Source: a virus (lineage: Duplodnaviria > Heunggongvirae > Uroviricota > Caudoviricetes). From it: 64,000 bases of DNA. Positions 2-63,627 of the stretch are shown one piece after another. A program made the position numbers and the translations under genes. Position 1 is the stretch's first letter, and every line of letters starts with the position of its first letter. A model generated the notes under the pieces. That model was not told the origin of the DNA, searched no databases, and worked only from the letters and a program-made list of their open reading frames with translations. Where the stretch lies: the IMG/VR virus record IMGVR_UViG_3300028833_000002; one strand, given 5' to 3'.

Positions 2-1432
2 TTTGAAGCCGCTGTTGAGGAAGGTGCTACATACACATTCGACTGCGGAAACTATACATGGGTTGGTGTTCAGATGAAAAACGCATCTGGAGGCAACACT
101 CGTGCAGAATTAGGTCATGGACCTGACACTAGGTCAGTTACATTCACAGCAGCAGCAGGTGAAACACAGGCTGTAATGCGTTTCTATCCGGGCGGTGGCG
201 TTGAATTTGACCAAATTGATTGGACTAAGATTTCATACACTAAAGACGGGGAAACTGCTGGTGAATGTGCGGGCCGCAATGCCGCTGACATCGAACGACT
301 TGATGGGTCAGCAATAATACCACCGCTTGTTTCAACAAATATCGTAGATATACTTGCTAAGGGCACTCGTAATGACCCAATTTACTTAACTCTTATGGGA
401 GATTCAATTACCTATGGTTACTCAGCGAGCGATGGAAAGTCATGGGCAGCACGTCTTGCTTCTTATCTTTCTGAAAGATATTTGGCGGGGGTTGTTGTTC
501 AGAACACTGGTGTTTCAGGCTGGGTATCAACAGATGCTGTAAGAGATATTGAAACAGCAATGCCATCAAATTCAAATATCGTTATTGCAATGTTTGGTAC
601 AAATAACCGTAGAGGTTCAACAGAATTAAATGCTCTTTACGATGATTATACAACATTCTATAATCGTGCTCAGAGCATTGGCGCAAAATTCATTCCGGCT
701 TGTTGTACAGCAGAAACATTAGTTAACGAATCTCTTGGTCCTGCTGGTCCGGGCAAATACGTTACTGACATGAGTGAAATTCATAGAATCCTTTCAAGAT
801 GGGCGAAAGACCACAACCTTGAATTACTTGATTTGTATGAAGGATTACTTAAGTATTGTAATTATGACACAGATGCTTTTGATAAGCTCTTTAATCAAAC
901 TGAAACAACAAATGTGGGTGGTCAGAGCTACCCATTCCACATCCATCCTAACGATGATGGACATTACTTAATGTATAGACTTTTCTGTGAGAAGTTAGGA
1001 ATCGCGGCACCTGTTGAATACTTTTCTGCTCCTGTTGGCGGCGGCGGTGCAACAAAATACTTACACCGTATTTACCTTTATAGAAAAGGTTATTATTACA
1101 TTGGATTCGATTTGTTCACAAACTCAGATACATCGTTCCAAGGTGATACTTAGGAAGTATTCAATGCACTTGCAGCAGAATTCACAGCTCAAAACTTTAC
1201 CAACTTCTCATGGAGAAGTATTCCTCATGCAACTGGTTGGTATAGAGAAACATCTGATAGTACGGCTATTACAATCGGAGCAATATACTACGATGGTACT
1301 GACTTTGTTGGTATTCGTGAGGGTGTTTCATTATCAACATTTGCCGATGCAACGATTAAACTCACCAACATGAAGGCGTTCAGTTCTTCACCAAAGGGCA
1401 CAATATTTGACAACAACATCCAAGCTATTTAA
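2..1432 (+). CDS. SGNH/GDSL hydrolase-domain structural protein (5' partial; fibre or esterase); in-frame TAG at 1151-1153 read through to TAA at 1430
   Basis: The frame is open from the window edge. The GDSL block I motif MGDSITYGY and block III FGTNN are present. The ORF continues in the same frame past the TAG and ends at TAA. Confidence 0.6.
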
Positions 1433-1514: not shown

Positions 1515-1775
1515 ATGGCATGGCATACTTATGAATCCTCTGGTAATAGTATTATTGGCGCGAACGTTGAAGAATGTCCGATAACTCCAGACTTCTTAGG
1601 TCATAATACTATTGCTGTAAAGGCTAATGTTAATATAGAAGTCAATGGCAAAGTTTATCATTTAGATGGTATAGAGGGTAGCACAGACATAGATGTTGTC
1701 GGCCCATCTCTTAAAACTAATGATGACTTATATATATTAACCTACGACCAAAAATTTATTAATGTAAGGAGGTAA
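1515..1775 (+). CDS. hypothetical protein (87 aa)
   Basis: An AAAGAGGTGA ribosome-binding site lies 5 nt before the ATG. It follows a terminator. Confidence 0.5.
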   Translation: MAWHTYESSGNSIIGANVEECPITPDFLGHNTIAVKANVNIEVNGKVYHLDGIEGSTDIDVVGPSLKTNDDLYILTYDQKFINVRR

Positions 1776-4700
1776 TGTTAATGACATATGGTAGTGCACA
1801 TTATTGGGCTTCTGAAGACCTTAACACCACAGGTGAAAATGTCGGCATAACCCTTGATAGTATGTGTGATATTATCGCGGCGAATGACGTTACAAATGGT
1901 AATGCTGTTGTATTCATTCCGGGCGATATTGAACACGGACAGAAAGGACATTTTCGCCTTGGTGAAGGCGGTGGAAGTGGCGCAAACATTGATGCTAGTG
2001 CTTATTAGCTTGTTGTCGGTGACGGCGAAGGTAATGGTATTGGCGCACAAGGCGGTGCTGAAGCTTAGGAAGCCAATAAAATTTATTTAAAAAACAAGAG
2101 ATTAGGTCCAAATATTCCAACTCATGAAGATGATGGAACTCCATTGGAAAACGTTGATACTGGTTCTTTTACCATTTCTTCAAATGGTTTAGGTCATACT
2201 CATACTGAAACAGTTCATGATGAAGAACTTGATGAAGATGTAGAGGTATAGGTAGAGGATGATGGCTGGAAAGCTACGATTGAAGATTTAGCTAAAGTGC
2301 TTGCTACTGGTAAGAGTAAGGTTGAGATTGGTGAAAAGGATGCAGATTATAATTTAACTTTCTGGGGAGATACACTCAATGGTCCAGATATAAAAATTAA
2401 AGGTGCCGCAAAAATTGAAATGCTCGAAAAAGCAGTTGAAACTGACAATCCTGGCATTACAGCGATTTCAATGAGAGGTAATTCTCTTATTGATATGTCG
2501 AATGAGAAGGTCTATAATTATGACTGGAAAAATAGATATTTTCCAAATGGTAGTTCAGAACGACAAAATTATAGAAGATTAAGTCCTTTTATTAATAAAG
2601 ATGATGGCCCTATACTTCAACTTAAAGGTTCTCCGACTGTTATGTTTTAGGATGACGCCATCGTTAAAGTTGAAAATGGCTCTCTTGTTGAAGTGGGCGG
2701 TAACGCAAGAGTTCATATTGTTGGTGGCGAATGGATTAATAATGCAGCCCCAAATGCAATAAACGGACTCGAAGAGAAAAAAATAGTTAATATTATGGCT
2801 GGACCAGGTTTTTGGTCTGAGTTATATGGAAAAGATGATTTTTATAGTGTTTTAAACATGAATCCGGGTACACTAATATTAACAACGCAACTTCTAAAAA
2901 ATCAAATTCCAACATCTGGTGGCAGTGGTATTTATAGTTATCAATCATGTTTTTACGATACGGGCTATAGAGACACATATACACCGGGTTATTGTTTTGA
3001 TGCTTCAGATTGGAATGTTTTCCATCTTCGTAGAATAGCTCCGAAAAACTATGCTTCAAGCTCTGCCACAAAATATGATAATCAAAGGTTAAGAAGTAGA
3101 TTAGCTTCCCCAACTTTCAGTATGTCAAATGCAACTATGCTTAGCGTGACAGCAAGAGACGAGTCAGCAATTTGTTTAAATATTGGTGCTGCAGAGCACG
3201 GAACAATTGTAACAGATATAACTACAAATGGACATATCAATATCAAAGCCGGAATGGAACAGGGCGCTTCGTTCGTATACGATTTTGGTTCATAGCCAAA
3301 TGCAGATGCTGCGGTAAAGGTTGGATTTAGTGGTTGTTCAAGAATAGTTTTTCAGCCACAAGATGGCACAAGCATAAACTTTTCTCCAAGAGGGCCTTTT
3401 GGTTTTTTCATTAATGCAAAACATACAGAAATGAACTGGGAATGGGAAAAATTTTATGGTTTATTTGGCGGCCATGATGTTTTTGCTTAGGTTGACGGAA
3501 ATAGCCACTTTGAATCATGGAGCGGAACAGTTATTTTAAGAAACTCTAATAATTTAAGAGCTTATAATGGTTCTGATAACCCTAGATATGAATATTATCC
3601 TTACTTCCCATCTCCTGAAAAAAATCGTTCAGTTAATGGAACAATAACAGTAAATGCAGATTTGTCTGATACATCTATTGCTGATATTGAAAGTACATAT
3701 GGTAATCAGTTAAAGAGTGCAACTGCCTTAAATGCAGCAATAGCAAATGATTATACATGGACTGGTTTTTCTGGAACATCAAAATCAAAATTACCGGCAA
3801 TATATTATGAGACATTATCATGCTCTTCTTGTACTTGTGTGGGAACTATACCAAGTATAGTTCTTTATGGAGAATATGATACTTGGGATGAAATATATAA
3901 CTCGGAAGAATTTAAGCAGTGGGTAAAAACAAATTTAGGTTGCACTAATACTCCAACTTATAATTCTGTAACTGGAGGAGAGATTACTGGGAAATCCCAA
4001 TATAGCGATGGACGTTGGAGTTATAATGGCACTTTCCCTATAAATATAACTAATATTACTATAACAATTAGAAGTGGTAATTCAACAACTCCAATTGATG
4101 AGGCATATTCAAACTTTAAGATTATTTATAATGGTAGTAGTTCATATCCTGGCACAGTTGAAATGAGAAACAAAATTGTAAAAGACTTCTTAGATACTAA
4201 AGACTACTACCTAAGAAAAATCTTTAAACTTCCATCAAGCCCATATTTCTCTTATTCATCACTTACAGAAAATCAATATGAAGAATCAATTTCTTTAGAA
4301 GATATTACTTTTGACCAAACCGGTGGATATTATAATTATTATATAACTATTACAACTTCTACATATATAAATTTAAACAACACAACTGTAGAGCAGTTTT
4401 TACAAAATTCTTAGGTATTAGCTTCTTTAAGAAGTTCTTTTGGTAATTTTACATCAGTAGAGCCTTTGGAAAATGTAGACTTACAATATAGTCGTTATCA
4501 GTATAGCAGATATTACTATGCTATTAAAGGTATTAGGGTTCATTATGACAGCTGGCCATTAACTAATACATTCTACAGTAATAGCCCTAGCAGCGGCGGA
4601 ATGCTAAATTATCCGGGTGAAGATTTAAGTAGTTTAGACCCAGTAACACAGAATACTATAAAAAATAAAATTGAAACATCTTATACATCTAGTTATTATG

Positions 4701-5365
4701 GTGTCTGGGACTGGTCAAATGCAACTTTTGCTAACGACTATGCGGTTACAGAAACAGTAAGATACAGTGTTTCAACAACTTCTAATTATACAGGCAACAC
4801 AGAAACTCATCTTGGAAAGAGCTGGTATGGACCAATTCAAACAGCCGATAGAGTTGGCGATAAGGATTGGGATAGGTCTCCTATTATTCAAGCATACGGT
4901 CCAATAAACATCTGTGTAAGAGAGAAATATCAACCAGGTGTTGAATATAATACCACAATAACTACTAGTGAAAACGAATTTGATTTAACAGATATGAATC
5001 AAGCAATAAGAGATTTCGTAGCATCTAGTCATTACCAAGAATTACTGGATTACATTAGTAATAATTACTCTGGAAAAGAGCTTTATTACATTAATCGTAT
5101 CAATACTACTGCTTCTTCTACACAGTATGTAGTTTATTTCTTCCTTAAAGAAGATGATTGGGACTTAGAAGTGGCTTCAACTACTAATGTGCCTGTAGTT
5201 GATGTGACTGAAGGTTCAGAACTTCGTATGTATGGCGGCGCTAAGATTAAGGCCGTAACCAAGTATGGTGAAACAGTTTACGAATTTAGTAGTGCTGATT
5301 CAGATGAAGAATCTGTATCATTCACTCTTGCGGAACTTAAAGCACTTAAAAACTTATTATCTTAA
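1775..5365 (+). CDS. large tail-fibre-like structural protein (~1196 aa) with at least 7 in-frame TAG codons
   Basis: Track ORFs 1775, 2297, 2693, 3662 and 4466 are all in frame 2 and are separated only by TAG. There is no TAA or TGA for 3.6 kb. An AGGAGG ribosome-binding site precedes the start, and the gene ends at TAA. Confidence 0.6.
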
Positions 5366-5402: not shown

Positions 5403-5431
5403 TTTACTTTTTCCTCAAATTATGTTATAAT
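5403..5431 (+). promoter_or_regulatory. sigma70/sigmaA-type promoter, family copy 1
   Basis: TTTACT, 17 nt, TATAAT with extended TG (TATGTTATAAT), ahead of gene 5456. Confidence 0.5.
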
Positions 5432-5455: not shown

Positions 5456-6580
5456 ATGAATTTTGATAACACACTAGCAACATTCGGCTCAGACGGTGGC
5501 GGTGAATTCAAACGTGATATTGACCGTGAAGAATCCATTGGTTATTCAGATGGCTCTTTCGCCGCGAAATGGGAACCTTTCGCAACAGCCGAAGAGCCAA
5601 TCGTGCCGCAAATTGATGACAAAATCCGTGGTATGTCTTATGGTTACTTTGCTAATCGCGGCGAAATAACATCGAAGAACGGTCTTGCTTCTCAGAGAAC
5701 AATGTTCAATGTGGGATTTAATTGGACTTGTTTAACAGTGGTAAACTACCAAGAATCCTACCATTCTACAAACATCTTCGCAGACCATTTGCGCACTCCG
5801 TCAGACCATGACATCGAATCATTTGTCAACGCCGCACATGAACGAGGGGTTAAGGTATGTTTAAAGCCAATGGTTCATTCTCAGGACAATGTATGGCGTG
5901 CTTTCATAAGTTTTCCATCACACAACATGGATGACGTGGATGCTTATTGGAAGCCGTGGTTTGAATCCTATAAGAACTTCATTCTCCACTATGCTGAACT
6001 GGCGCAGAAACTCGGTGTTGAAATGTTTTGTATTGGATGCGAAATGCTTGGCGCAGAATATCGTGAAGCTGACTGGAGATACATTATCTCCGAAGTTCGC
6101 AGAGTTTATACTGGTATCGTAATCTACAACACTAACCATGACCACGAAGATACTCAGGGATGGTTTGACAGTCTAGACTACATCGGCACATCAGCATACT
6201 ACCCAGTAGGCGACCCAGACAACTCCTATGATGGCATGGTTAAAGCATGGACTGATATACGTTATCGTCTTGACGCAATCGCGGCGAGCCGTAATAAACA
6301 GTTCATCTTCATGGAAATTGGTTGCCGTTCTGTCAAAGGTGCATCAGCACATCCATGGGACTTTAACTATGACCTTCCATACAGCGAATATGAACAACTC
6401 ACATTCTACCAGTCATGTATGGACGTATTCTATGATGACCCATATTTCGCCGGCGTATTCTGGTGGGATTGGCCAACATATCTCCCAACATCCGTAGGCC
6501 GCGATTTCTACATCCACAACAAACTAACTGAAAAATACTTGTATGATTTTAATACGGCAAAGGGTTAGACAAAAACTTAA
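5456..6580 (+). CDS. TIM-barrel glycoside-hydrolase-like protein (possible depolymerase); TAG at 6566 read through
   Basis: An AAGGAGG ribosome-binding site precedes the start. The sequence has clan GH-A-like features (FMEIGC, CIGCEM). The assignment is by motif only. Confidence 0.5.
5558..5568. repeat. exemplar of the palindromic 11-mer TTCGCSGCGAA (TTCGCCGCGAA)
   Basis: Perfect palindrome inside a CDS. Confidence 0.6.
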
Positions 6581-6635: not shown

Positions 6636-7181
6636 GTGATTAATATGACAAGAAACGAATTAGTAAAGTCATTAGAGGCCGACCTTGGTAAACAGCTTGG
6701 CTCTAATTACAATTATGATTGGTGCGCTGCATATGTATCAGATAAACTTTTAAGACCAATTGGAGAAAAGTGGTTTAGTTCATGTACTCAGATGCGTGAT
6801 TACTTCAACCAGAAAGGTAGAGTAAACCATGATTATAGAACCGCTGAAATTGGTGATATTATCGAGTTTGACTGGGATTTAAGCGGCGATTGCGACCATG
6901 TAGGAATCATCGTAGATGTAGACTATGCTAAGGGTATTATCACAACAATTGAAGGCAACACAGACGGAAATCACTGGAAACTTTCAAAGGTTGCAAAGCA
7001 TACTTACAGCATGGATTACAAATACTTCGCAAACATTATCGACATGAGTTCTGTTTTCATGAATGAAGCACAGGAAAACAAACCAGCCGGCGGAGAACAG
7101 ACAGATACAGTTCTTAAGGCTGTAAAACTCATTATCGACGGCGAAGTAGTTTATGATGGCTACGCAAGAATTAAGAAGTAA
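6636..7181 (+). CDS. CHAP-domain peptidoglycan hydrolase (endolysin candidate)
   Basis: There is a conserved Cys in DWCAAYVS and a His in CDHVGIIV, typical of CHAP/NlpC-P60. A GAGGTGA ribosome-binding site is present. Confidence 0.65.
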   Translation: MINMTRNELVKSLEADLGKQLGSNYNYDWCAAYVSDKLLRPIGEKWFSSCTQMRDYFNQKGRVNHDYRTAEIGDIIEFDWDLSGDCDHVGIIVDVDYAKGIITTIEGNTDGNHWKLSKVAKHTYSMDYKYFANIIDMSSVFMNEAQENKPAGGEQTDTVLKAVKLIIDGEVVYDGYARIKK

Positions 7182-7538: not shown

Positions 7539-9146
7539 ATGGCACTTGATTATTCTATTGTTGATGGAATAATCAAAACTCTTATCTCCGGTATTGACGG
7601 TGATAAAAAAGTCACCGCAGAAAATTTCTCAGGAAAGGACTTAAAACAATTCATAGACCACCAAGATGTGTTCTGGGATGGACTTGTATAGTTCATGCAG
7701 AATGAAGATGTAAAGATGGGCAAGTATGGATTGAAGCAAGCTGATTTTCTCAATGAGGAAAACGCGGCAAGTGTTGTTGAATTTATCAATGACCATGCTG
7801 ACCTCATTGAGAATTTTCTTGATGATTGTCTTGAAAGAAAGACCGAACACTGGAACAAGAGTTTTGATAAGTTAATTGAAACTTTTAATGATATGGTTGT
7901 GGAAGATAAATAGATTGGTGAATCTATTTTTACAATAAATGATATTACTGCCGCAAATGCTGGTAATAGTTTTCGCGGCGGAGAATGGGTAAAGCCTTGG
8001 TAGAATGTTGGTGGTTATGATTATGCAGAGGTAAGAGGTAATGATAAGAACAGAGAAATTCTTGATAATCCTTAGTTCTTACAATACACACATAGAATTT
8101 TTGATAAGTTTATTAGACTTCTTATGCCGAAATATGATAGAACACTTGCTGTAGAAGACCTGAACAGAAACTTCTGGGTTATTGGTTAGGTTTTGGCGGC
8201 AATATTGGAGTTCTTGTTTAATGATGATAACCCTTATAAAGATGTGTTTGATGGGATATTAGATGAGATTGCTTAGTTGTGGGAGAATTTGTTATACCTT
8301 TGGATTGGATTTATTGCTATTTCTTAGAAGAAATAGATTGAAGATGTTTAGTTTATTGTTATGAGAGCCCCGGCTGATGATATTAGGAACTTTGAGAAAA
8401 GGGATGGGGCAATGATAAATGCAGGGGGTTTTGATTCTTTTTAGCAATTCTCAAATCTATTAAATTCTTTTAAAAGTAAGGTTGATTTTTTAAAAGATAT
8501 ATATACTAATAGTACAATCGTTGTATTGTTAGAAATTCCTATTTATAAAGCGGGTTATAACGATTGGCATTTTGCAAATTGCTTCGGATTATATGTTTAT
8601 AATAGGAGAGTTAGTAATGTAGGAAATTTCTTAACTGTTATGTATACAGCAAAAGATTTTGCAGTAGATACTTCTGAGCCAGAGTGGTAGTGTTATCCAA
8701 TAACATGTATTGCTTCGGCAAGAACTCATTACCGTTCGCCAAATAGTAATTTGGAAATTATTGATGATTAGGAGTCGTTAGTCGAAAACCCACCACTCAC
8801 AACCTTTATAAAAAATGGCAAAGAATACTCAATAATCACAGAAGTCCGTCCAGATAGAACAATCTGCGCGGCAAGAACCAAATACAACCTATCAATTACT
8901 TTTAGTGGCAAAGACATTACAGACTTAGGAATTACAATGGATTTCTATGATGTTGCTTATGAGTTGTTTGGTGCAGCATCATCAAAAGTATTAACGGTTA
9001 ACCTTGTTTTAGATAATAATGAAATGGTATATGACAGTCACCAAAGCTATACATTACCTTAGCTATCGGGGACTGTTAAAGTTGAAAAAGGAATATATTG
9101 GGGGGAAGTTTTAGCAGACTTTAACCAAAATATTCACTTTAATTAA
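7539..9146 (+). CDS. structural protein, paralogue A (~535 aa), about 13 in-frame TAG codons
   Basis: Frame 0 is open from ATG 7539 to TAA 9144 and is interrupted only by TAG. The region 7914-9146 has no track ORF because of TAG density. It aligns to 11188-13356 and 15246-15803 (LMP...VEDLNRNFWVIx[Q/TAG]). Confidence 0.55.
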
Positions 9147-9160: not shown

Positions 9161-10153
9161 ATGGCAATAACAGGAACAGGAACATAGGGAGACCCTTTCG
9201 TAGTGCATAGTTACGAGGAATTTATATCGTTGTCTGGTCACGAACCAATAACTGGCACTAAGGCAGTTTATATCCAGTTTTTTGATACTCCAAATCGAAC
9301 CATAGATTGTAACGATTACGGTTCTGAATTTAAATGGGGTGAATTTACTGGTAATGCTCGTCTCTATGGAAACTGCACATATTATATAGACTTAAACGGA
9401 TGTACAATTAAGAACTTTTTAATTGAAGATGGGAAAACAATGTTTTTTGGAGAAGATCAGCATGAGTGGAATGGTTCATATACACGGATTGAAATTAGTA
9501 ACGGTGCAATAAGAAACGTATTCATGGGCTCAGCAACATCAAAGGTGTGCGGCGACTATGTAGAGTTTCATGATGTGTCGCTGTCAGTTAACGCTTCAGG
9601 AAGCACTGTTGTTCCGTTTGATGGCAATGGTCACATAATTATCGACAACACGGCTTTATATTTAGTCGCAAGCACTCTTAATACGTCGCTCATGAAAGGT
9701 GCCCGAATAACAGATACAGATATTGAACTGCATATAGCCAATCAGAATGAGAAAAATATATTCGATGCCACTCTTACGGATTGTCGTATACAGGGAAAAA
9801 TTAGTGGTAAAGGTATGCCTACAGGTCTGAATGCCGATACTTGCGTCTTGGACCACTGCGGTTTAAATTCAAAATCTCTTAATTACACAAATTGTGTAAT
9901 CGATTTGGATTTAACCGATAGTCGCATAATAAACTATGGCTTTGGCGGGTCAAGATACGATGTGTTCATCAACTATAATGGTTATGACTTCAACACAAAC
10001 GTAATTTGCAACTCGCATCATCCTAACGACACCGGACATGAATCATTTTATGGCTACCAGTCAGACTGGAACTTCATCTCACACACTCTCATGCGAAATG
10101 GGGCGTATTTAAACTCAAAAGGCTTTACAGTAGTTGAAGTGGTTGAAGGGTGA
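9161..10153 (+). CDS. hypothetical structural protein; TAG at 9185
   Basis: An AAAGAGGTGA ribosome-binding site precedes ATG 9161. The gene ends at TGA. Confidence 0.5.
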
Positions 10154-10728: not shown

Positions 10729-13700
10729 ATGAACTACGGACAAGACAAGTTCTTTAATGGCGACAAAGGCCTTTATACTACCCTCATATCAGACCTACTT
10801 AACAAATATAAATCAGACAACGATTTCCGGAAGGACGTCCAAGTGGACTCCTTCTGGAACGAGTCTTTAGCCAGACTTTTAGAATTACTTAACCAAAAGA
10901 TTGACCCTAATGGTATTCGTAATTATGAATCGTCTGGCTTATTAGTAGAACTGATAGACGGTACAATAGATGATTCTGTGTTAAGAGCCGCACTTACCAC
11001 AAAGGATTCAAATGATAGATATGCCGCAATCCGCTTAATGGATGTTATGGACGCGGATGCTGGTGCTAATTTTTGCGGCGAAGACGACTTATATGAACAG
11101 ATGCGCTTTTATGAAACCATTACTATCAATGGTGCAGTTGGTAAAAACGTTTTATTTGATAGTTAGGCTTTTGGACCATTAGATAAATTGTTAGCTGGGG
11201 AAGACATTCTTCATGGCGCCTTTACCTATATAATAAGGGGAATTCGTTCAGGCGTAGATGCCGAAACTGGAAAAGCCTACTGGCCACCTTATGCTGAAGG
11301 TGAAAATTCAGCAACGGCTTCAACTCCAACAACTTATCGGGTAGTCAAGAAACCATGGGTAATTCCTTGGTTCAATCTCGATATGGAAAGTTATTCTAAG
11401 GTTCGCGGCGAAGACAAGAAACTCAGTGTTCTCGCAGACCCATCAGACTTAGGCTTTACCTGTATGCAAAGAGATGGACTTGCAGACGACATGGAATTTA
11501 GAATCCAAGCTATGCAAATCTATAACATATTAGTTGAAATTGGTCTTGAAAAAAATAAAGGAGAAACAGAGTTTGACAAATACAGAGCTTACGGCAAACA
11601 AATCGACTATACATCTCATAGCTTTGAAAATATTAACATGGACAAACGTCAAGTTCTCGAAGTAGACGATACTGTAGAAACTGTTCTCGGAAGTTCAATG
11701 GCTATACGTATAGGTGATGTAATACCACCGGAATCTACCGTAGACTTTAGTAGTATTGAAGACATGTATGTTTCAATCTGTTATAGCCCATTAGAACAAA
11801 CAGAAGGCATCTATCCAATACAACTAACCAACGAAGAAGTAACGCAATACTTCTCAGACATAATCTACAATATACTTGAACAAAGCACAACAGCTCCAGA
11901 CCCATCGGATATAGTATTTAAAGTTAAAAACACAGATAGGGCCGCTAAGAACTTACTCGCCGCCATTGAGGTCGTAGACGAAGACCACGTAGATGACAAT
12001 GCTCCAGTTGCCCTTGGTAGTTGCTTACACTATTGCGGCAAGTTCGGTTCAATCCAACTCATGGAAAAAGAAGCCACAAAAGTCGCAGAAAGAATTGGTG
12101 TGACCTACGAAAAATTTGAAAACATGGAATTTGACGACTTCTGCTCTCTATGGGCGCAAAAAGCAAATCGTTGGATTCGTCTTATCATGCCGCAAAATAA
12201 ACGCAGAGTTGAAGTTGAAGACCTTAATAGAAACTTTTGGGTTATCGCTCAGGTAATTGCCGGCGTTAGTGCTTACTTATTTGACGGGGACGGTCCAATC
12301 AGTGAGTTCCTTAAAGGCATGATTAAAGAAATTGGTCAACTTTGGGAGAATGTTATTTACCTTTGGATGACGCAAAGTTTAATTGGAGAGCCTCCACTTA
12401 TAACAGATACACACTGTGAAGTGCTTATGCCGAACGCAGCTCACGGGAAAGTTTCAATGACCTATGATGATTTCGTTTGCTCTCCAGAACTCAATTATCT
12501 CTTACAAAAATATCCAGACAAAAACCTTTGCATTTTGCCTTACATGAGAAAAAATAATTATGAGAACGATTATTACTCTAAGGTATCGTTCCCAGGTGTT
12601 TATATCTATGATAGAAACATGGATAACCCTTCCTGGGAGGTCTTACCACTAAATACCACAGGGTTGGAAATAGATTTGGGAGATTATGCCGACCATATAT
12701 ATGGTCTGATTAAATTACCGGAATACAACATCTCAACTGGCAAATACATGGTAGACGATTTCACAGCAGAAATGTTCCCTGAGCACTACAGAAATTACTT
12801 AACTTTCGCGCCGCTTAGTTCAGCACCATACATTGGTCTTGACCTTAAGAGATACTATGGTCTTGCAAGAGATATTATAGATTTTGACGGAAAACTCTAC
12901 AAGAAAAATTCTGAAGGTATTTGGGAAAAGAATCCACAAATTGACATTCACATTATCTTTAGAGATACAGTAAGAGAAATGATGACAGATAGGGTAGCTA
13001 ACCTTATGGAGTATAAGGGTGAGTATGAGGAAGGAGTAATCACAACAAAGAAATATAAAACAGCTCTTGACAATGGCCCTCTTGGTGAAGTAGCGCCTAC
13101 ATTAACACCTATTAAAAAGGGCTACTATCAGGGCGAAATGTTAAGCACATATGTTGATGTTGATGACCCTATGTACTCAATTATGGTTTTACCTACCATG
13201 AAAACAGAGCCATATTACGAAACTGAAGCACACTTCAAATCTCATTACAATTACACAGATTTACCTGACCTTGTGGCTTCTGATAAACAAATCTTACTTG
13301 CATATGCAAAGGCAAGCGAAGATTATTCAAATAACCCAGCGGCATTTAAGATGTAGAACTATAATGCATTAAAGGCTTTATACACAACAGAAGAAGTTAT
13401 GTATAAGAATACAGCCGCGGTTTATGATAAAACCACAAGAAGTGCATTAGCAAGTGATACGTCAGGTGAGGAACCAGTTCTTGTATATCCTACATTTGCG
13501 GATTATTTAGCAGAGCTTGTGTCGGTAATCAACAAAGACAAGTATATTTCTCCTTACTGCTTAATATTTGCAGAAGGCGAAAAGAACTTCAACTATCGCG
13601 CCGATACAGAAGAACCACATAAAATGATTAAGTATTTAGCATCAAAAGATGGTTTAGTTTCTCAGTATTATGAGTCAACACATCCGACCGACTTCACCAA

Positions 13701-14769
13701 TGCTAATGCTGTTATTTATTGCGGCAAAGAACATATTGCATCAGATTATCCGGGCCATCGCACAATAAAACCAACTAATGGACATAGTTTCCTAAGTGGT
13801 GTACTTTCTGTTCAGAGAGACGGCGAAAAGTTCAAATTTGGCTATGGTAATTACACTTGCGAGGAAGCACTACAACTCCCTATTGATACAACTGGTGAGG
13901 GACGCACTACAACTTCAATAATGGCCGGACAGCATGAACAATGGTTAACTTGTAAACAGACTGGTTAGGATTTCGGCCCATCAACATGGCTCGTAGTAAA
14001 GGTTGAAGCTCCATATGCTGTTAATACTAAGTTGATTAATGGTAGTAACGACACTATGGAAAAATATTGTTGGGGCACACTGAGAGATGAAATAGACCTA
14101 AATAGATAGTTCGCAAGAAATATCGCGGTGCAATGGTCTACTCGTGAAGAAGCAGACACTTATATAGATACATGGGGAGATGCTGTAAATGCTATCAAAG
14201 AGGCTTTCGCGGCGGAAGAAATGGATATATATGAGGATTCATGGTATTTAGAGCAGGCAATTATAGGTATATCAAATTCACCTTACTATGATGAATGGTA
14301 TATAGAACAGTGTGGCCTTTATGATGACGACCCTCAATGGGATACTAAGGTAAGGGCATGGCTACAAGATAAAGGCATCACGCCGCAGACATACACATCT
14401 CATGGTTTTGATACATGGACTGGTGAACGTATTTTCATCAACACTTCAATGCGTTCTGAAATAAGAGTTTATATGTTCGGTCCGAATGGTATGTATGGTC
14501 AAAAGATTTACAGTAGAAATGCCGATGGTGAATTTGACCAAACTCACATTGAAACGGGCGGCACACATGATGTAGACACAGTTCGTGCTGGCTACGAAGT
14601 TATTAACAACTCTAGCCGCAATCGCAACTATGAAAAATATAAAGACTTCGGTCATAAAACGGACACAACATACTATGACCCAGACCAGATGGATGATACT
14701 GTAGAAGGCCCGGCATGGTATGAACAACACATTACTTGGGTAGACCAAAACCCTCCGTGGGATAATTAA
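10729..14769 (+). CDS. giant structural protein, paralogue B (~1346 aa), 4 in-frame TAG
   Basis: Track ORFs 10729, 11188, 13399 and 14128 share frame 1 and are separated only by TAG (11167, 13354, 13966, ~14107). An AGGAGG ribosome-binding site is present. Confidence 0.55.
11402..11412. repeat. exemplar TTCGCGGCGAA
   Basis: Perfect palindrome inside a CDS. Confidence 0.6.
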
Positions 14770-14780: not shown

Positions 14781-17708
14781 ATGGAACGTTGGTTAGAATT
14801 TTTAAAAACAATTACTAACTTAAAGGTTCTTGTTCAAATGCTCGGTCTTACTCCTGAAAACGAGGAACGATTCTGGAAAGACCTCCTGGCTTTACTTAAA
14901 AGTCAGGAGCATCCAGTCGTTTTTGATGATGGAGAACTTACTGGATTGGTTGGATAGGTAATTAGTTCAGCAGACTTTGAAGACAGAGATGAAGAACCTT
15001 TTACAAGTGAACTTTACAACACACTTAAAGAGCTGATTTATAATGATACTAATGATAGTTTTTGGAATGAGTCAGTTCAGCAATTAATTAAATATTTCAT
15101 CAAGAACATTGAAGAAAGACCGGAGGACAAGATACTGATTCCAATAGGTGATGATAATGAACATAGTATTAGAATCAGTGATTTAAAGGCCGCAGATGCC
15201 GGCAATGGTTTTGATTATACACCTATTAATGATGAAGACTATTGGGTGCGTCCAAGGTATAATATAGATGATAGGGCTTACGATGAAGTAAGAGGTCACG
15301 ATGCTCTTAATGATGATTTATCAAATGATACGGCTGTACAATTCACAAAAGAAAAAGATATTGAAACATGGATTAGACTCCTTATGCCGCAATATGGTAG
15401 AAGAGTTTTAGTTGAGGATTTAGATAGAAACTTTTGGGTTATTGCTTAGACTATTAGTGCTATTTGCGCATACTTATTTGGCGACGAAAATCCAATAAAT
15501 AAAATGTGTGAAGGTATCGCAAGAGAAGTTTCTGAGATATGGGAAAATGTGTTATACCTTTGGTTAGAAATCGCGGCAATAACACAGAAGAAACAGAAAG
15601 GTATTAGAGTAATGAGTTTGTATGTGCCGCCAAGAGATAATGAACATGGCAGAAAATATGATGACTTTGAAAGTAAAAACAGTGCTATGTCATGGGATAT
15701 TGATGAATATGGTAATATGGTTATCACAGTTGAAGATTGGAATAGTTATAAGAATGAGATTGTGGATAGAATCGGTTATTTAACTGAGGATTTCGCAAAT
15801 TAGGACTTATGTGTTCTTCCAATTGTTAGACTTGATAATTATACAGTTGACTTCTATTCTACAGAATACTATCCTATGGTTTTATTCTATTCTAAAGATA
15901 CTAAGGAATGGACTTACAAGCGTATTAAGGAATAGATTGGTGATACATTAAAGGATTCTTTACTTATTTCGCCGCGATTTGAAGATAAGACAGACGGTAA
16001 GAAACGCTTTACTGATTAGATTATGGGACAGTTTAGAGTTTGTGATGGCGATATGGTAGTGTGGCCTTTCTCAAAAGTTCCAAGTCAAAGTAATGGTGAA
16101 GAAAATCCAACCTTAAAGTATATTGGTTGTTTACGTGTTAAACCAAACATTACTTTAAAGGAGAATGAAACAGAGATAGAAAATCTTGAATTATCTGTTT
16201 ATGATACATTTGCTATGATTTCTACTTCACATGAGGGAGAAATGGTAGACCGAGACTATAGTTTTATAGGTAAATATAGTTTAGTTCCTAGCAATGATGA
16301 CAGCCTTGTGCTTACTTATCAGGCTGATTCAGAACAGGCTGAACAGAGAGAAGAAGAATATGAAGATGACGCTATTCCTTGGCGAGAGCTAAAGGCTTGG
16401 TACGGCGGCGAAGTGGCATCATGGATGTTAGAAACTGCTTCTATCATTTCTTCTGATAATCTGTTTAACAATCAGGCTTATGTTCTTAAAATAGGAAATT
16501 ATCTACCAGAAAATGGCGATGATTTTATTATGGCTTCTGTTGATGATAGTGGCACTTTCAAATACACATCTATGTATGGAAACGTCACAAGAAAATCAGG
16601 AACGGGCCGCAACACCAAATACTATAGACTTAGATGGGACACTTACCAACCGGAAAATGATGGCGGGCCAGATGAAGCTGTTAAAAACAATAAAATTTGT
16701 TATGCAAAAGACCCGGAAAAACGACCATGCACATATCCAACAAAAGCTCATATAGAATATGATGGACTTATCGCGGCGAAGAATTTCATCAAAGCAAATG
16801 CAGGAACTGTAGGTAAGAACCCATGCTTCATTGCGACAACAATTGGCTTAACTCCGTGGTCAGGTACGGGAAGAACAGGTAGCGACGTTTTCTGGGATGT
16901 ATCATTCTTGCCGGCACTATATTTCTATATTCCTACCATAGAGTCATTAACTGGTATGCCATAGGAAACAGAGGGCTATGATTTTTCTCCATACATCAAA
17001 ACCTATACAGAGAATGAAGCCATTTATTTGGTTAATGATTAGCTTAATGCTGATGAAAGACCAGACGGGGACGGCACAGTCTATACCGAAGAAAATGGTC
17101 AAAAGAAAGAAATCGGCAAAATTATCGCTTGCTTACCTATGAATAGATATGAAAGTTACTTTAGAAAGCTGGGTCTTGAAGCTGATGATGGAACTTATAT
17201 GGGTGACTCGCACTGGAGACAATTCTACATTACCAATAATGATGAAAACAACGTATGCTCCAAAGAAGATGTTAATGGTGGTGCAAAAGTGCCGGGCGGT
17301 ACAACAATTTACCAAGCGACTTTTACACCTCGTTTTTGCGGCATGGTAGAATACTTTGACGTACTTCGCCACAACGCATCAAACAGAACAGCATTACTTT
17401 GGGAAGACCAAATTGCAAAAGTTTCAGAAGCAGTAGTTTAGATAGACCAAGACGGCTACGAACAAACAGAAGAAGGCTCAATTAGGTCAGCAAAAAATGT
17501 TGCGTTACCATGGGAAGATAGAGAAGCCTATGAAACACAAAGGTCAACTATGGCAACTGGTTTCCAACAGTTGATGAAAGAAGAAGATGGAGAATGGCAC
17601 GAACGTCCGGAAGACATTTATGGTAATATAGAAAAATGCATCGGGAAAAATGCAGAATACTTCCATGGTAATACAAAACTTAATGGCGGCTTGTGTATAT
17701 ATAGTTAA
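14781..17708 (+). CDS. structural protein, paralogue C (~975 aa), about 8 in-frame TAG
   Basis: Frame 0 is open from 14781 to TAA 17706. Track ORFs 15246, 16023 and 17139 are in the same frame. A GAGGTGA ribosome-binding site is present. Confidence 0.55.
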
Positions 17709-17717: not shown

Positions 17718-17746
17718 TTTACTTTTCTACAAAACTATGCTATAAT
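17718..17746 (+). promoter_or_regulatory. promoter family copy
   Basis: TTTACT-17-TATAAT (tatgcTATAAT). Confidence 0.5.
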
Positions 17747-17883: not shown

Positions 17884-18792
17884 ATGAATAAGAAGAACTT
17901 AAACATGATGTGTGGCATCGTTATTGGCCTAGCGATGTGTTTTACAGTTGCAAGTTGCGGCTAGAACACAAAAGTAGACCTAGTAAACACAGATACTATT
18001 TATGCAGATGTCGCAGAAAGCACAGCAGAAACGACCATTGAAACAACTGTAATAACAACAGTTGCTACATCTAATTCCACAACAACTTCTGCCGCAATCA
18101 CCACAGCAGAAACAACAGTGGAAACAACTAATGCAGAAACAGAAGCTCCGGCAACAGAAGCTGAAGTAGTAATAGTGCCAGAAACAGAAGCACCAGCAGA
18201 ATATGTAGAACCAACACCGGAAACAGAAACTGAACCAGCACCAGTGGTTGAGCCAGTAGAAGAATACTTAGTTTATAAGCCAAGTACATATTACATCCAT
18301 CGTAGCACTTGCAGATGGAACAAAGATGACGCTTATCGTATAGACTCGGCTAATGGACTTACAGCAAGACTTTGTACTGAATGTTGCCCGGAATGTGATG
18401 GATTTGAAGAATACGTTCCGCCAGTGGAAGAAGCTCCAAGTTCTGATGGTTTAACATATTTTGGTTATTTCGGAAGAGTAACATATTACCCAGCAACAGC
18501 ATATTATGATGGTGTTTGCGGCGGTTCAGGTAGAACTCTTATGGGTTATGGTGATTATGGTAATGGCATAAGAGGTTCTGTAGCAAGCAGAACTTTATAT
18601 GAGACATATGGATATAATAGAAATGGTAGAACAACAGTTTATCTCGAATTTCCGGGGTATCCGGAGATGAATGGAACGTACTATTGTGATGATTGCTGTA
18701 GAGATTATGGTGTAATTGACGTTTTCGTATGGAGTGATTATAGCTGTCCATTCTATAATGCCGGTGTAATTACAGCAGACTGTTACATTTAA
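17884..18792 (+). CDS. lipoprotein with Thr/Glu/Pro linker and RlpA-like DPBB (lytic-transglycosylase-like) domain
   Basis: The signal peptide ends in the lipobox VASC. A TAG follows the Cys. The C-terminus reads GRVTYY...GGSG...VASRTL...NGRTTVYLEF. An AAGGAGG ribosome-binding site is present. Confidence 0.55.
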
Positions 18793-18913
18793 TTTTATAT
18801 CAATATCAAGTTTATTTTGTTAATGAACTTGTGTTAAGTTAATTGAATTGGCAACTCAATTGCGAAGGATAAGAAGATAAACACAAGGGAAGATTTTTAC
18901 TGTAAAAATGAAG

Positions 18914-18946
18914 GGATGTTCACAGAGATTGTGAGCATCCTTTTCT
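18914..18946 (+). terminator. rho-independent terminator
   Basis: 11-bp hairpin ggatgttcaca/tgtgagcatcc followed by TTTTCT. Confidence 0.6.
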
Positions 18947-18947
18947 A

Positions 18948-18976
18948 TTTACTTTTTTGAAAGCTTGTGTTATAAT
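18948..18976 (+). promoter_or_regulatory. promoter family copy
   Basis: TTTACT-17-TGTGTTATAAT, ahead of the helicase gene. Confidence 0.55.
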
Positions 18977-20618: not shown

Positions 20619-21171
20619 AACATATGTTATAGCAAACCTTAATCTGTTTGAGCATGGCGACGACACCAAAAGCAGTATCGTTGAGAACTGGAATAAAGTG
20701 GTAAGTGAAGATGATGTTGTTATTGTCATGGGGCCTGTAGGAGTTGGTAGCTTTGATGAAATGAAAAGTGTAATTAGCCAACTCAACGGTGAAAAACTTT
20801 TATATGATTATAGCATTAATCAAATGTTTACCAAAGAGGAATGGAAGGAAATCGGTTTTAAATATTGTTGGAATACACCAATGTTCAATGAATTACCAAA
20901 TGGTGAACTTGTGTTCTATGTACTAGCAGATGATTCTGTACATACTAGAGAAGATTGTGCTTTGTTCGTGACGAGTACAAATCATAATGTTGGTGACATT
21001 AAAAATTACTTTATTCCTGACGCAGATACTTTTGATTTTTGTCCTATAGATGCGGATGAGGTTCTAAATGTTTATAATAATATGATGGCTTTTGAAAGTA
21101 TGCCGGACACTGTTGAAACTCATAGTGAGGTTAAAGAGCTTGAATGGGGTGATGTTAAATGGGATTCGTAA
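20611..21171 (+). CDS. metallophosphoesterase-like protein with degenerate motifs
   Basis: The layout resembles the protein at 33623, but the metal ligands are altered (FEHGDD, IVMGPVG). Confidence 0.4.
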   Translation: MNKTYVIANLNLFEHGDDTKSSIVENWNKVVSEDDVVIVMGPVGVGSFDEMKSVISQLNGEKLLYDYSINQMFTKEEWKEIGFKYCWNTPMFNELPNGELVFYVLADDSVHTREDCALFVTSTNHNVGDIKNYFIPDADTFDFCPIDADEVLNVYNNMMAFESMPDTVETHSEVKELEWGDVKWDS

Positions 21172-22196
21172 TAGGTGCTATTTTCGCGGCAGCAATAATA
21201 CTTGGTTATTGTTTTTTCCATAACAAGTAGGTTAGGCATAAAGAGGCTATCATAGAAGCTGAATATGCACAGAGATTAATAGCCGAGATTTCCAACAATG
21301 TAGTTGCCGAAAAGAACAGACTAATTGATGAACAGGTTTCGGAACACCTAAGACAAGCAACTGAGGACGTTTCCAAATAGCTAAAAACGGTAACAGATGA
21401 ATTTGAAGCTCGTAAGACTCAAATCTATCAACAATTACAGTGTTTGGAAAATGAACTAAGCACAGCGATTGCTAACAAAAACGCTCGTATAAGGGAAATA
21501 ACTGAGGAACTTTCTCGACAATCAGCCGTGGTTGCAACTGAAAATACTGAGAAACTTAATGAGTTAAAGCAACAGTTTCTTGCCGCGAAAGAACAGATAC
21601 AATCAGAGTTCACAACATTCTCTGATGACATCGCGGCGAAAAAGGAAACTCTTCAAAAGGAGCTTGCGGCGCAAGAAGCAAAACAAAAAGAAATTATAGA
21701 GCAATACAAGCGTGCCGAACAAATCAGAGAACAAGAAAACTTCTATCGTATTGTTCTCACTGACAATGAAAAAGAAGATGTTTGTAAACTCCGTAAAATG
21801 GCAGAGGACTTACATGACCCTACCGCCCTTTATAAACTTATCTATGAACAATATTACAAGCGTCCATTCAATGAACTTATGGGGCGCATCATTGGTGAAG
21901 ATACTAGCGTAGGTATCTATAAAATCACCAACATAGAAAACGGCAAATGCTACATAGGTCAAACTAAACAAGAATTTAAAACACGTTTTCTTCAGCACGT
22001 AAAGAGAGGTCTTAAGGTAGAACCATCTACTAAAAATAAACTCTATGCGGCAATGTGGGAAGATGGTGTGGAAAACTTTACCTTTGAAATCTTGGCGCAT
22101 TGTGAAGCAGAAGACCTTAATACTAAGGAAAAAGAATTTATAAACTTCTATAAAGCCAATGAGTGGGGATACAATTCCACTACCGGCGGCTCATAA
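21159..22196 (+). CDS. N-terminal TM helix, coiled coil and C-terminal GIY-YIG nuclease domain; 2 in-frame TAG
   Basis: ATG 21159 is in frame with track ORF 21444. GIYKITNIENGKCYIGQT, R and H are present. A TM helix lies at the N-terminus. Confidence 0.55.
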
Positions 22197-24397: not shown

Positions 24398-24426
24398 TTT
24401 ACTTTTAGTGAGAGATATGTTATAAT
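24398..24426 (+). promoter_or_regulatory. promoter family copy driving the suppressor tRNA (about 290-nt leader)
   Basis: TTTACT-17-TATGTTATAAT. Confidence 0.55.
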
Positions 24427-62804: not shown

Positions 62805-62805
62805 T

Positions 62806-63614: not shown

Positions 63615-63627
63615 AGGAGGACAAAGT

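What the first reader, a model, noticed from the sequence alone, without database searches (positions are those of the whole stretch)
7539..9146. Steep TAG-density gradient: about 13 TAGs in one 535-aa late gene, few or none in early genes
The structural genes between 1.7 and 17.7 kb carry 4 to 13 in-frame TAGs each. Most of the ~80 small early and middle genes carry none. Four of them (the lipoprotein gene at 17884, 21159, 57321, 63285) carry 1-2.

This is the pattern expected if suppressor-tRNA availability gates late-protein synthesis. It also explains why 7914-9146 shows no ORF at all in the standard-code track.
Basis: partly seen in the sequence, partly recalled or inferred. Interest (0 to 1): 0.6.

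Follow-up and report, generated by a model that had tools for sequence, protein, structure and literature searches.

The report
Amber-to-glutamine recoding of late phage genes
This is part of a large uncultured rumen phage that reads the stop codon TAG as glutamine in its tail-fibre-like late genes but keeps TAG out of its early genes; the pattern is real, but it has already been described for other gut phages.

Summary
Gene 7539-9146 has exactly 13 in-frame TAGs in 535 codons and no TAA or TGA. No ORF of 60 aa or more exists on either strand between 7914 and 9202.

In my curated gene set, the block 1-18.8 kb carries 36 TAGs in 6093 codons. The block 19-64 kb carries at most 8 in 12067 codons (odds ratio 9, p = 6e-11). 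Out-of-frame TAG frequency is about equal in the two blocks.

Codon alignments with four related metagenomic phages show that TAG exchanges mainly with CAG and CAA, so TAG encodes glutamine. A tRNA with anticodon CUA lies at 24714-24788, behind a host-type promoter.

That promoter motif occurs 27 times. Twenty-five copies are in the TAG-poor block, and one heads a TAG-poor island inside the late block.

Refinements:
- The late block is not uniformly TAG-rich.
- Three more downstream genes carry a TAG.
- GIY-YIG homing endonucleases carry TAGs.
- One "early" TAG replaces an invariant Trp.
- Individual TAG sites turn over like synonymous codons.

This is partial code-15 recoding as described by Borges et al. 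It is a new lineage of a known kind. The timing role is inferred, not shown.

The parts
7539..9146 (+). The TAG-richest gene: 535 codons with 13 TAG, 1 CAG and 7 CAA. Lineage-specific protein of unknown fold, paralogous to 10729 and 14781.
   Evidence: Orthologs at 38-98% identity are full length and also carry TAGs. This family has the highest TAG density in all 5 genomes compared. No fold or family match.
1775..5365 (+). Large late gene, 1196 codons, 7 in-frame TAG.
10729..14769 (+). Large paralog, 1346 codons, 4 TAG. It shares the conserved core 'RLIMP..VEDLNRNFWVIAQ' with 7539 and 14781.
14781..17708 (+). Large paralog, 975 codons, 8 TAG.
9161..10153 (+). 330-codon gene with a TAG at codon 9 (index 8 counting from 0), in the conserved N-terminal motif MAITGTGTQGDP.
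   Evidence: The same codon is TAG in L001, CAG in L002 and GAA in L010.
2..1432 (+). C-terminal 476 codons of a giant protein of about 1950 aa, SGNH/GDSL esterase and tail-fibre-like. It has 1 TAG here. The whole gene on L010 has 2 TAG against 40 CAA/CAG.
5456..6580 (+). GH113-like glycoside hydrolase. It forms its own unit between promoter 5403 and terminator 6592. Its only TAG is 4 codons before the TAA stop.
6636..7181 (+). CHAP-domain lysin with 0 TAG; all 5 of its Gln codons are CAG.
24714..24788 (+). Suppressor tRNA with anticodon CUA. Canonical cloverleaf with U1-A72 and A73. Its T-arm is identical to that of the phage tRNA-Gln(CUG).
   Evidence: ARAGORN; Rfam tRNA 54.5 bits; the same gene is present in relative L005.
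24398..24426 (+). Sigma-70/sigma-A-type extended -10 promoter (TTTACT-N14-TGTTATAAT), about 290 nt upstream of the suppressor tRNA.
5403..5431 (+). The only copy of that promoter motif inside the structural block. It heads the GH113 unit and is conserved in L001, L002 and L010.
17718..17746 (+). The same promoter motif upstream of the lipoprotein gene; conserved in L001.
18910..18976 (+). Strong terminator (18910-18944) followed by a promoter (18948-18976). This marks the boundary between the TAG-rich module and the TAG-poor block that starts with the UvrD helicase gene.
17884..18792 (+). Lipoprotein gene with a TAG at codon 27, two residues after the lipobox Cys.
   Evidence: The relative L001 has AAG (Lys) at that codon.
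57321..57950 (+). GIY-YIG/NUMOD1 homing endonuclease with a TAG at codon 25 (index 24 from 0), inside the catalytic domain.
   Evidence: Pfam GIY-YIG covers residues 1-87. The database gene call starts after the TAG and loses the motif.
21159..22196 (+). 345-codon gene with a C-terminal GIY-YIG domain and 2 TAGs in its N-terminal transmembrane/coiled-coil part.
62481..62813 (+). Small gene with a TAG 3 codons before its TGA stop.
   Evidence: Relatives have CAG there, and the C-terminus KKAQYE is conserved.
63285..63629 (+). Small gene whose TAG at codon 68 replaces an invariant Trp (TGG) in relatives. The 46 residues after it are conserved as protein.
51519..51591 (+). Phage tRNA-Gln(UUG).
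52836..52906 (+). Phage tRNA-Gln(CUG).

Best explanation
The window is about one third of an uncultured rumen phage genome of about 180-190 kb. The host is probably a Clostridia-type Firmicute. The phage uses genetic code 15 in part of its genome.

Proposed mechanism:
1. A phage tRNA with anticodon CUA (24714-24788) is transcribed from a host-RNA-polymerase-type promoter.
2. It is charged with glutamine, presumably by the host pathway.
3. It competes with release factor 1 at UAG.
4. Genes that must work before the suppressor is available are kept free of internal TAG by purifying selection. These are the promoter-dense block of helicase, RNA-repair, tRNA and small genes from 19 kb onward, and the GH113 unit.
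5. In the promoter-less tail-fibre-like module (about 1.8-17.7 kb), TAG behaves as a third glutamine codon, fed mainly by CAG-to-TAG changes.
6. Full-length late proteins, above all the 7539 product with 13 TAGs, can therefore be made only once the suppressor is active.

Shown: the recoding, the amino acid, the tRNA, the gradient and the promoter map.

Inferred: the timing, the host's standard code, and whether the dependence is a selected timer or a by-product of tolerance.
For: - **The TAG-containing ORFs are real genes.** Orthologs at 38-98% identity are full length and free of TAA/TGA. The chance of such an ORF is 7e-13.
- **TAG encodes Gln.** Partners of TAG in codon alignments are CAG 28, CAA 20, GAA 21, then a long tail. 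TAG sits opposite Q in the conserved core of the paralogs. In the exchange matrix, TAG-CAG is 46 and TAG-CAA is 28, and TAG's non-synonymous exchange rate (33%) matches CAG (28%) and CAA (30%). The CAG share of CAA+CAG is 39% in the late block against 64% in the downstream block.
- **Suppressor tRNA(CUA)**.
- **Gradient.** Odds ratio 9, p = 6e-11, with equal out-of-frame TAG. It is reproduced in independent gene calls on relatives.
- **Promoters.** 27 copies of an extended -10 promoter motif where 0.07 are expected by chance, all on the + strand. 25 lie in 18.9-62 kb, including one before the suppressor. One lies before the TAG-poor GH113 unit and one before the lipoprotein gene. The motif is conserved in relatives.
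- **Terminators.** No gene needs TAG as its terminator: 67 end in TAA and 22 in TGA.
- **Gene-specific enrichment.** Gene 7539 has TAG:CAG of 13:1, against 19:30 in the other three big genes (p = 5e-4). It has the highest TAG density in all five genomes, including the 38%-identical one.
- **Published model.** Borges et al., bioRxiv 10.1101/2021.08.26.457843; proteomic proof of code 15 in crAss-like phages, PMC9523058.
Against: - No expression or proteomic data exist for this phage. The temporal classes rest on gene function and promoter motifs only.
- The function of the TAG-rich paralogs is unknown, so 'structural' is a contextual inference.
- The suppressor is behind an early-type promoter, so no hard switch is evident.
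- Some late-block genes are TAG-poor: the giant protein (2 TAG in 1946 codons) and the CHAP lysin (0 TAG). Borges et al. stress recoding of lysis genes, so the lysin result differs from their emphasis.
- A few promoter-driven genes do carry internal TAGs: the lipoprotein gene, 63285 and 34879.
- No release factor or aminoacyl-tRNA synthetase gene is in the window. No ORF of suitable size is left unannotated, and the precomputed Pfam hits for the related loci L005/L007 list none.
- Only about 40% of the genome was examined.
Confidence: 0.8

Rival explanations
1. Permissive drift only. Once the phage had a suppressor, CAG-to-TAG changes became nearly neutral in genes translated late, and they stay deleterious in genes translated early. 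The gradient is then a passive signature of constraint, and TAG has no regulatory or timing function.
For: - Individual TAG sites are retained no better than synonymous Gln codons: 0.40 against 0.29 for CAG and 0.54 for CAA.
- The base after TAG shows no bias.
- TAG load is lumpy within the late block.
- Some TAGs are recent one-base accidents at non-Gln codons: AAG to TAG in the lipoprotein gene, and TGG to TAG at an invariant Trp in 63285.
Against: - The 7539 family is the TAG-richest gene in all five genomes, including one that shares almost no TAG positions with the others, and TAG has nearly replaced CAG in it.
- Mobile nuclease genes inside early regions carry TAGs: three GIY-YIG genes, two of them with the TAG inside the catalytic domain, plus a sub-threshold DUF2726-like ORF. 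This matches the gene-specific enrichment reported by Borges et al..
Confidence: 0.35
2. The TAG-interrupted regions are pseudogenes, non-coding DNA or assembly errors, and TAG is an ordinary stop.
For: Under the standard code the region 7914-9146 has no ORF. NCBI's table-11 annotation of a related contig splits these genes into fragments.
Against: - Full-length conservation at 38-98% protein identity in independent assemblies from several sources.
- No TAA or TGA in 535-1346 codons (p about 1e-12).
- TAG exchanges with CAG and CAA.
- A cognate suppressor tRNA is present.
Confidence: 0.01
3. TAG encodes something other than glutamine. Pyrrolysine is one candidate, because ARAGORN labels the tRNA 'Pyl'. 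Trp or Tyr are others.
For: - The ARAGORN label.
- One TAG aligns with an invariant Trp.
- Four columns pair TAG with TAT or TAC.
Against: - The tRNA has a normal D-loop, a 5-bp anticodon stem, a 5-nt variable loop and a GTTCGAATC T-loop. From established knowledge, tRNA-Pyl has none of these.
- CAG and CAA are by far the commonest partners of TAG, and TGG appears once among about 180 partners in the late genes.
- The TGG, TAT and AAG cases are each a single-base change away from TAG.
Confidence: 0.02
4. The host itself reads TAG as sense, so the phage simply shares its host's code and nothing is gated.
For: The host is unknown, so this cannot be excluded directly.
Against: - TAG is almost absent from about 77 downstream genes, although they hold 277 CAA/CAG codons. 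About 60 TAGs would be expected at the late-gene rate, and at most 8 are seen.
- The phage carries its own suppressor.
- Phages of recoded hosts have in-frame recoded codons in about 90% of their genes (Borges et al.).
Confidence: 0.03

Closest known systems
Alternatively coded (code 15, TAG to Gln) gut phages described by Borges et al. [quoted passage not shown]
   Same: - In-frame TAG that aligns with Gln.
- A phage-encoded tRNA(CUA).
- TAG not used as a terminator.
- Recoded codons concentrated in late modules, while replication-type genes stay compatible with the standard code.
- A homing endonuclease inside an early region is recoded, as reported for Agate (there with TGA).
- One gene next to the lysin is preferentially recoded.
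- Large genome with many tRNAs, from an animal gut.
   Different: - No close DNA or protein relative exists in GenBank phage records or in IMG/VR by peptide scan.
- Clade membership was not tested, because the terminase lies outside the window.
- The CHAP lysin itself is not recoded.
- No RF2 or aaRS 'code-change module' is in the window.
- The suppressor stands alone behind a host-type promoter, 18 kb from the main tRNA array.
Block-wise dual coding in divergent crAss-like phages (Mgcod, bioRxiv 10.1101/2022.06.29.495998) and phAss-1 (PMC10607447)
   Same: The genome is divided into a standard-code part and a TAG-recoded part.
   Different: I know these from titles and abstracts only. They are Bacteroidota phages with smaller genomes, and I did not test any sequence relationship.
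Theta (HDV-like) ribozymes next to suppressor tRNAs (Kienbeck et al. 2024, PMC10879173)
   Same: A phage suppressor tRNA in a recoded gut phage.
   Different: No HDV-like or other ribozyme hit at E <= 1 in 24300-24900. Only 46 nt separate the tRNA from the next gene.
Late-gene codon usage matched to phage tRNA arrays in T4-like phages (as discussed by Borges et al.)
   Same: A phage tRNA set, and codon usage that differs between temporal classes.
   Different: Here the codon is a stop codon, so the effect is all-or-none per ribosome and not a change in rate.

Membership tests
Code-15 (TAG to Gln) alternatively coded phage | In-frame TAG codons inside conserved protein-coding ORFs | tested here: met
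   13, 7, 4 and 8 TAGs in four large ORFs. Orthologs at 38-98% identity are full length with no TAA or TGA.
Code-15 (TAG to Gln) alternatively coded phage | TAG positions align with glutamine in homologs | tested here: met
   CAG and CAA are the commonest partners (48 of about 180). TAG sits opposite Q in the conserved core of the paralogs. The exchange matrix looks like that of a synonymous Gln codon.
Code-15 (TAG to Gln) alternatively coded phage | Phage-encoded suppressor tRNA with anticodon CUA | tested here: met
   24714-24788: ARAGORN, and Rfam at 54.5 bits. Also present in relative L005.
Code-15 (TAG to Gln) alternatively coded phage | TAG is not needed as a terminator | tested here: met
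   All 89 curated genes end in TAA (67) or TGA (22) when TAG is read through. For 62481 the read-through is confirmed by CAG in relatives. For 22282 and 34879 the read-through is unverified.
Code-15 (TAG to Gln) alternatively coded phage | Recoded codons enriched in structural and lysis genes, with early genes compatible with the standard code | tested here: inconclusive
   Strong enrichment in the tail-fibre-like module. However, the TAG-rich proteins have no assignable function, the CHAP lysin has 0 TAG, the giant tail-fibre-like protein has few, and the capsid, portal and terminase genes were not seen.
Code-15 (TAG to Gln) alternatively coded phage | The host uses the standard code | not testable with these tools
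   The host is unknown. Hints of a Clostridia-type host: a related contig binned as 'Eubacterium sp.', a dockerin domain in a relative, a CHAP lysin, and sigma-A-type promoters. The TAG-free early genes argue indirectly for a standard-code host.
Code-15 (TAG to Gln) alternatively coded phage | Gln detected at TAG positions in the protein | not testable with these tools
   This needs metaproteomics, as in PMC9523058.
Named recoded clades (crAss-like, Lak, Jade, Sapphire, Agate and others) | Placement in the large-terminase phylogeny | not tested
   The terminase gene is not in the window or in any fetched locus.
tRNA-Pyl (ARAGORN's label for the CUA tRNA) | Atypical tRNA-Pyl architecture: short D-loop, 6-bp anticodon stem, 3-nt variable loop and no GTPsiC consensus (from established knowledge) | tested here: not met
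   The tRNA has an 11-nt D-loop, a 5-bp anticodon stem, a 5-nt variable loop and a GTTCGAATC T-loop.
Theta-ribozyme-associated suppressor tRNA | An HDV-like ribozyme that abuts the tRNA | tested here: not met
   No ribozyme family at E <= 1 in 24300-24900, and none at gathering score anywhere in the window.

The most novel reading that the evidence does not exclude
TAG load is tuned gene by gene as a translational threshold, and is not just tolerated block by block. The 7539 family, where TAG has almost replaced CAG in five genomes, would be the most suppressor-dependent product: a 'last-made' or deliberately scarce tail component. Host-promoter units embedded in the late block stay TAG-free. 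Homing endonucleases, and even conserved codons of some early genes (TGG to TAG in 63285), would be put under suppressor control as conditional alleles.
Probability: 0.2. Interest if true: 0.5.

Novelty: new member of a known kind. Interest (0 to 1): 0.3.

Why it matters
It adds a well-documented Firmicute-type rumen lineage to the set of partly amber-recoded phages. It also adds a sequence-only marker of temporal class, a very regular host-type promoter motif, which lines up with the absence of TAG. With that marker the 'early genes stay in standard code' idea can be tested here without transcriptomics.

There is a practical point too. Standard-code annotation breaks these genes up, as in the NCBI MAG record where a related phage contig of 180,054 bp is filed under Eubacterium sp. 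The conceptual content, suppressor-dependent late translation, is already published.

Tried and rejected
- **Deposited relatives.** Megablast of 1-20000 against GenBank phages found nothing. tblastn of the lineage-specific core found nothing. A peptide-pattern scan of IMG/VR found nothing. So I could not read a whole annotated relative.
- **Isotype of the suppressor tRNA.** Similarity to the other window tRNAs was uninformative, at 63-69% to Ile, Phe and Gln.
- **Ribozyme or structured element near the suppressor.** Rfam found none. The 281-nt leader folds with z = -1.7, which is not convincing.
- **Base after in-frame TAG.** No bias.
- **First promoter pattern.** It had a spacer one base too long and found nothing; corrected.
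- **TAG as the true stop of early genes.** I considered that TAGs near the C-terminus of early genes are their real stops. For 62481 this is rejected, because relatives have CAG and the tail is conserved. For 22282, 34879 and GH113 it remains open.
Full report
**What is in the window**

Almost every ORF worth calling lies on the + strand, and GC content is about 0.38. ARAGORN finds 26 tRNAs, among them one with anticodon CUA at 24714-24788. Rfam adds one more tRNA and a ROOL RNA.

The window divides into two parts.
- **1 to about 18.8 kb.** This part encodes the C-terminus of a giant SGNH-esterase, tail-fibre-like protein, then several very large proteins with no family match. It also encodes a GH113-like hydrolase, a CHAP lysin and a lipoprotein.
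- **19 kb onward.** This part encodes a UvrD helicase, a PNK/HD protein, Thg1, two RNA ligases, a PurZ-like enzyme, a Ro60-like protein, tRNA arrays and many small ORFs.

Exact or near-exact proteins occur on metagenomic contigs of 180-191 kb from cattle rumen and other samples. On one of these, the window-equivalent region wraps around the contig ends. The window is therefore about a third of a circular or circularly permuted phage genome.

**Check of the observation**

Gene 7539-9146:
- With TAG read as sense, it is a single ORF of 535 codons with exactly 13 TAGs and a TAA stop.
- At the window's frequency of TAA and TGA (5% of trinucleotides), the chance of 547 codons without either is about 7e-13.
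- Under the standard code, no ORF of 60 aa or more exists on either strand between 7914 and 9202.

In-frame TAG counts in the other late-block genes:

| Gene | In-frame TAG |
|---|---|
| 1775 | 7 |
| 10729 | 4 |
| 14781 | 8 |
| 9161, GH113, the lipoprotein gene, the giant gene's C-terminus | 1 each |
| CHAP lysin, the 86-aa, 107-aa and 185-aa genes | 0 |

Block comparison in my curated gene set:

| Measure | 1-18.8 kb | 19-64 kb |
|---|---|---|
| Genes | 12 | 77 |
| In-frame TAG / codons | 36 / 6093 | at most 8 / 12067 |
| TAG per Gln-equivalent codon | 0.21 | 0.03 |
| Out-of-frame TAG | 2.07% | 1.76% |

- Fisher's test gives an odds ratio of 9 (p = 6e-11).
- Because out-of-frame TAG is about equal, base composition does not explain the difference.
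- At the late-block rate, about 60 TAGs would be expected in the downstream block.
- The database's own gene calls on related contigs give the same contrast: 7.9 and 3.5 TAG per 1000 codons in late loci, against 1.3 and 0.8 in early loci.

**What TAG means**

- The three big proteins 7539, 10729 and 14781 are paralogs with a conserved core. In that core, TAG in one paralog sits opposite Q in another.
- I aligned five late genes codon by codon across the window and three relatives (L001, L002, L003), at 38-94% protein identity. TAG pairs with CAG 28 times, CAA 20, GAA 21, AAA 9 and TAT 8, followed by a long tail.
- A separate pairwise exchange matrix over four late genes in the window and the closer relatives L001, L002 and L010 shows TAG-CAG at 46 and TAG-CAA at 28. 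TAG is retained at 0.40, between CAG (0.29) and CAA (0.54). Its exchange with non-Gln codons (33%) matches CAG (28%) and CAA (30%).
- CAG is depleted relative to CAA in the late block: 39% of CAA+CAG, against 64% downstream. This is expected if TAG arises from CAG by C-to-T change.

TAG is therefore a glutamine codon here.

The CUA tRNA is a canonical cloverleaf with U1-A72, and its T-arm is identical to that of the phage tRNA-Gln(CUG). It lacks the peculiar architecture of tRNA-Pyl, so ARAGORN's 'Pyl' label is only a naming convention.

**An independent handle on temporal class**

A very regular extended -10 promoter, TT[T/G]AC[T/A]-N14-TGnTATAAT, occurs 27 times on the + strand and never on the - strand. 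By chance 0.07 copies are expected.

Where the copies lie:
- Twenty-five lie between 18.9 and 62 kb, about one per 1.8 kb. One of them (24398) is 290 nt upstream of the suppressor tRNA, and several precede the tRNA arrays.
- One copy (5403) lies inside the 1-17.7 kb block. It heads the GH113 gene, which is bracketed by terminators at 5373 and 6592. GH113's single TAG is 4 codons from its stop.
- One copy (17718) heads the lipoprotein gene.
- The GH113 site is conserved in relatives L001, L002 and L010, and the lipoprotein site in L001.
- A strong terminator followed by a promoter at 18910-18976 marks the boundary between the two blocks.

The motif is what a host sigma-70/sigma-A holoenzyme would recognise. 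I therefore read promoter-rich as early or middle, and promoter-less as late. This is an inference, but it lines up well with the absence of TAG.

**The exceptions**

Mobile nuclease genes inside early regions carry TAGs.
- **Window 57321.** Its GIY-YIG catalytic domain spans residues 1-87, and the TAG lies inside it. The database gene call wrongly starts after the TAG.
- **Window 21159.** It has a C-terminal GIY-YIG domain and two TAGs in its N-terminal part.
- **A GIY-YIG gene on L005.** It has two TAGs, one of them inside the domain.
- **A DUF2726-like ORF on L010.** It has three TAGs, and its Pfam score is just below the cut-off.

This matches the recoded intron endonuclease that Borges et al. 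reported in Agate phages.

Other downstream TAGs:
- **62481.** The TAG is 3 codons from the end. Relatives have CAG there, so truncation would be harmless.
- **63285.** The TAG replaces an invariant TGG (Trp). The 46 downstream residues are conserved in 20 relatives, and the TAG allele occurs on at least 4 contigs.
- **Lipoprotein gene.** Its TAG is AAG in a relative.
- **22282 and 34879.** These could not be resolved for lack of divergent relatives.
- **42927.** This is probably not a gene.

**Within the late block**

- The 7539 family stands out. TAG:CAG is 13:1, against 19:30 in the other three big genes (p = 5e-4).
- It has the highest TAG density in all five genomes compared: 24, 19, 19, 17 and 9 per 1000 codons. 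That includes the 38%-identical relative, which shares almost none of the TAG positions.
- It lies two genes downstream of the CHAP lysin, which itself has no TAG in four of five genomes.
- The giant 1946-aa protein has only 2 TAGs.
- The fold and function of the 7539 family could not be assigned.

**Mechanism**

The best-supported reading is partial code-15 recoding.
1. A phage tRNA(CUA) is made from a host-type promoter.
2. It inserts Gln at UAG in competition with release factor 1.
3. Genes translated before it is available are kept TAG-free.
4. Promoter-less late genes use TAG as a third Gln codon, so their full-length products depend on the suppressor.

The data do not decide whether this dependence is a selected timer or merely tolerated.
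- **For tolerance:** site turnover like that of synonymous codons, no bias in the base after TAG, and accidental-looking TAGs at Lys and Trp codons.
- **For gene-specific selection:** the consistent excess in 7539 and in the homing endonuclease genes.

No release factor or aminoacyl-tRNA synthetase gene is present in the window: no unannotated ORF is of suitable size, and the precomputed Pfam hits for related loci L005/L007 list none. No ribozyme abuts the suppressor.

**Comparison with what is known**

- Borges et al. (bioRxiv 10.1101/2021.08.26.457843) describe the same pattern and the same model in eight clades of gut phages, including large phages of Firmicutes from animal guts.
- Code 15 has been confirmed by proteomics in crAss-like phages (PMC9523058).
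- A 2026 survey reports that recoding in large rumen phages is confined to parts of the genome (PMC13037316).
- The present lineage has no relative in GenBank phage records. A related contig of 180,054 bp sits in an NCBI MAG labelled Eubacterium sp. and is annotated with table 11, which fragments the genes.

**Verdict**

- Novelty: a new member of a known kind.
- Interest: about 0.3.
- The promoter map, the TAG-free island, the TAG-bearing homing endonucleases and the Trp-to-TAG allele are useful details. They are not new principles.

Noticed in passing
window 53631-54219 (+): Full-length ROOL RNA (Rfam RF03087, 285 bits, model positions 1-574 of 574), embedded in the phage tRNA array between tRNA-Leu(AAG) and tRNA-Ile(GAU).
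   Followed up: no
window 41466-42602 (+): Adenylosuccinate-synthetase-like gene. Its best match is the PHROG family of PurZ-type enzymes (phrog_1211, E = 5.5e-34). This hints that the phage might make 2-aminoadenine (Z) DNA. I did not examine its neighbours 39966-41453 for DatZ- or MazZ-like functions.
   Followed up: no
window 17718-61984 (+), 27 sites: A strikingly uniform extended -10 promoter motif, TT[T/G]AC[T/A]-N14-TGnTATAAT. There are 27 copies, all on the + strand, where 0.07 are expected by chance. It is conserved in relatives L001, L002, L005, L007 and L010.
   Followed up: yes
window 23029-23991, 29106-29918, 38820-39710, 44413-45534, 60099-61754: A large RNA-repair and tRNA-maintenance toolkit: a PNK/HD protein, a Thg1-like tRNA-His guanylyltransferase, two RNA ligases and a Ro60/TROVE protein (54% identical to gp540 of Bacillus phage G). 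It sits alongside 27 tRNA genes.
   Followed up: partly
window 54662-54732, 58569-58642, 54320-54393: Odd tRNAs. ARAGORN reports one with a 2-base 'anticodon' (Rfam 39.9 bits) and a tRNA-Cys with anticodon ACA. Rfam finds one further tRNA at 54320-54393 that ARAGORN missed.
   Followed up: no
window 63285-63629 (TAG at 63486-63488): The TAG replaces an invariant Trp codon (TGG) that is conserved in 13 aligned relatives. The downstream 46 residues remain conserved, and the TAG allele is found on at least 4 contigs from different sources. It could be a suppressor-dependent conditional or hypomorphic allele.
   Followed up: yes
window 7539-9146, 10729-14769, 14781-17708: Three paralogous large proteins share an invariant core (R..MP.Y.R...VEDLNRNFWVI...LWEN..YLW) and have variable C-terminal parts. 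The family has 156 homologs in metagenomes, no Pfam or PHROG family, and no structural match. They may be receptor-binding or tail-fibre proteins built on a new anchor domain.
   Followed up: partly
window 24433-24713 (+): A leader of about 280 nt, relatively GC-rich and with no called gene, lies between the promoter and the suppressor tRNA. It has no Rfam hit, and its fold z-score is only -1.7.
   Followed up: partly
L010 (NCBI GCA_017965495.1, JAGCPW010000095.1, 180,054 bp): A related, near-complete phage genome is deposited inside a MAG labelled Eubacterium sp. It is annotated with the standard code, so its recoded genes appear as fragments; for example, the giant gene is split into pieces of 1209 and 547 aa. 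Upstream of the late module lies a minus-strand block with NrdD and a DNA ligase.
   Followed up: partly
L003 21022-21947: In the more distant relative (148 kb contig), a gene just after the helicase carries Dockerin_1 and Hydrolase_2 domains. This hints at a cellulosome-producing Clostridia host.
   Followed up: no
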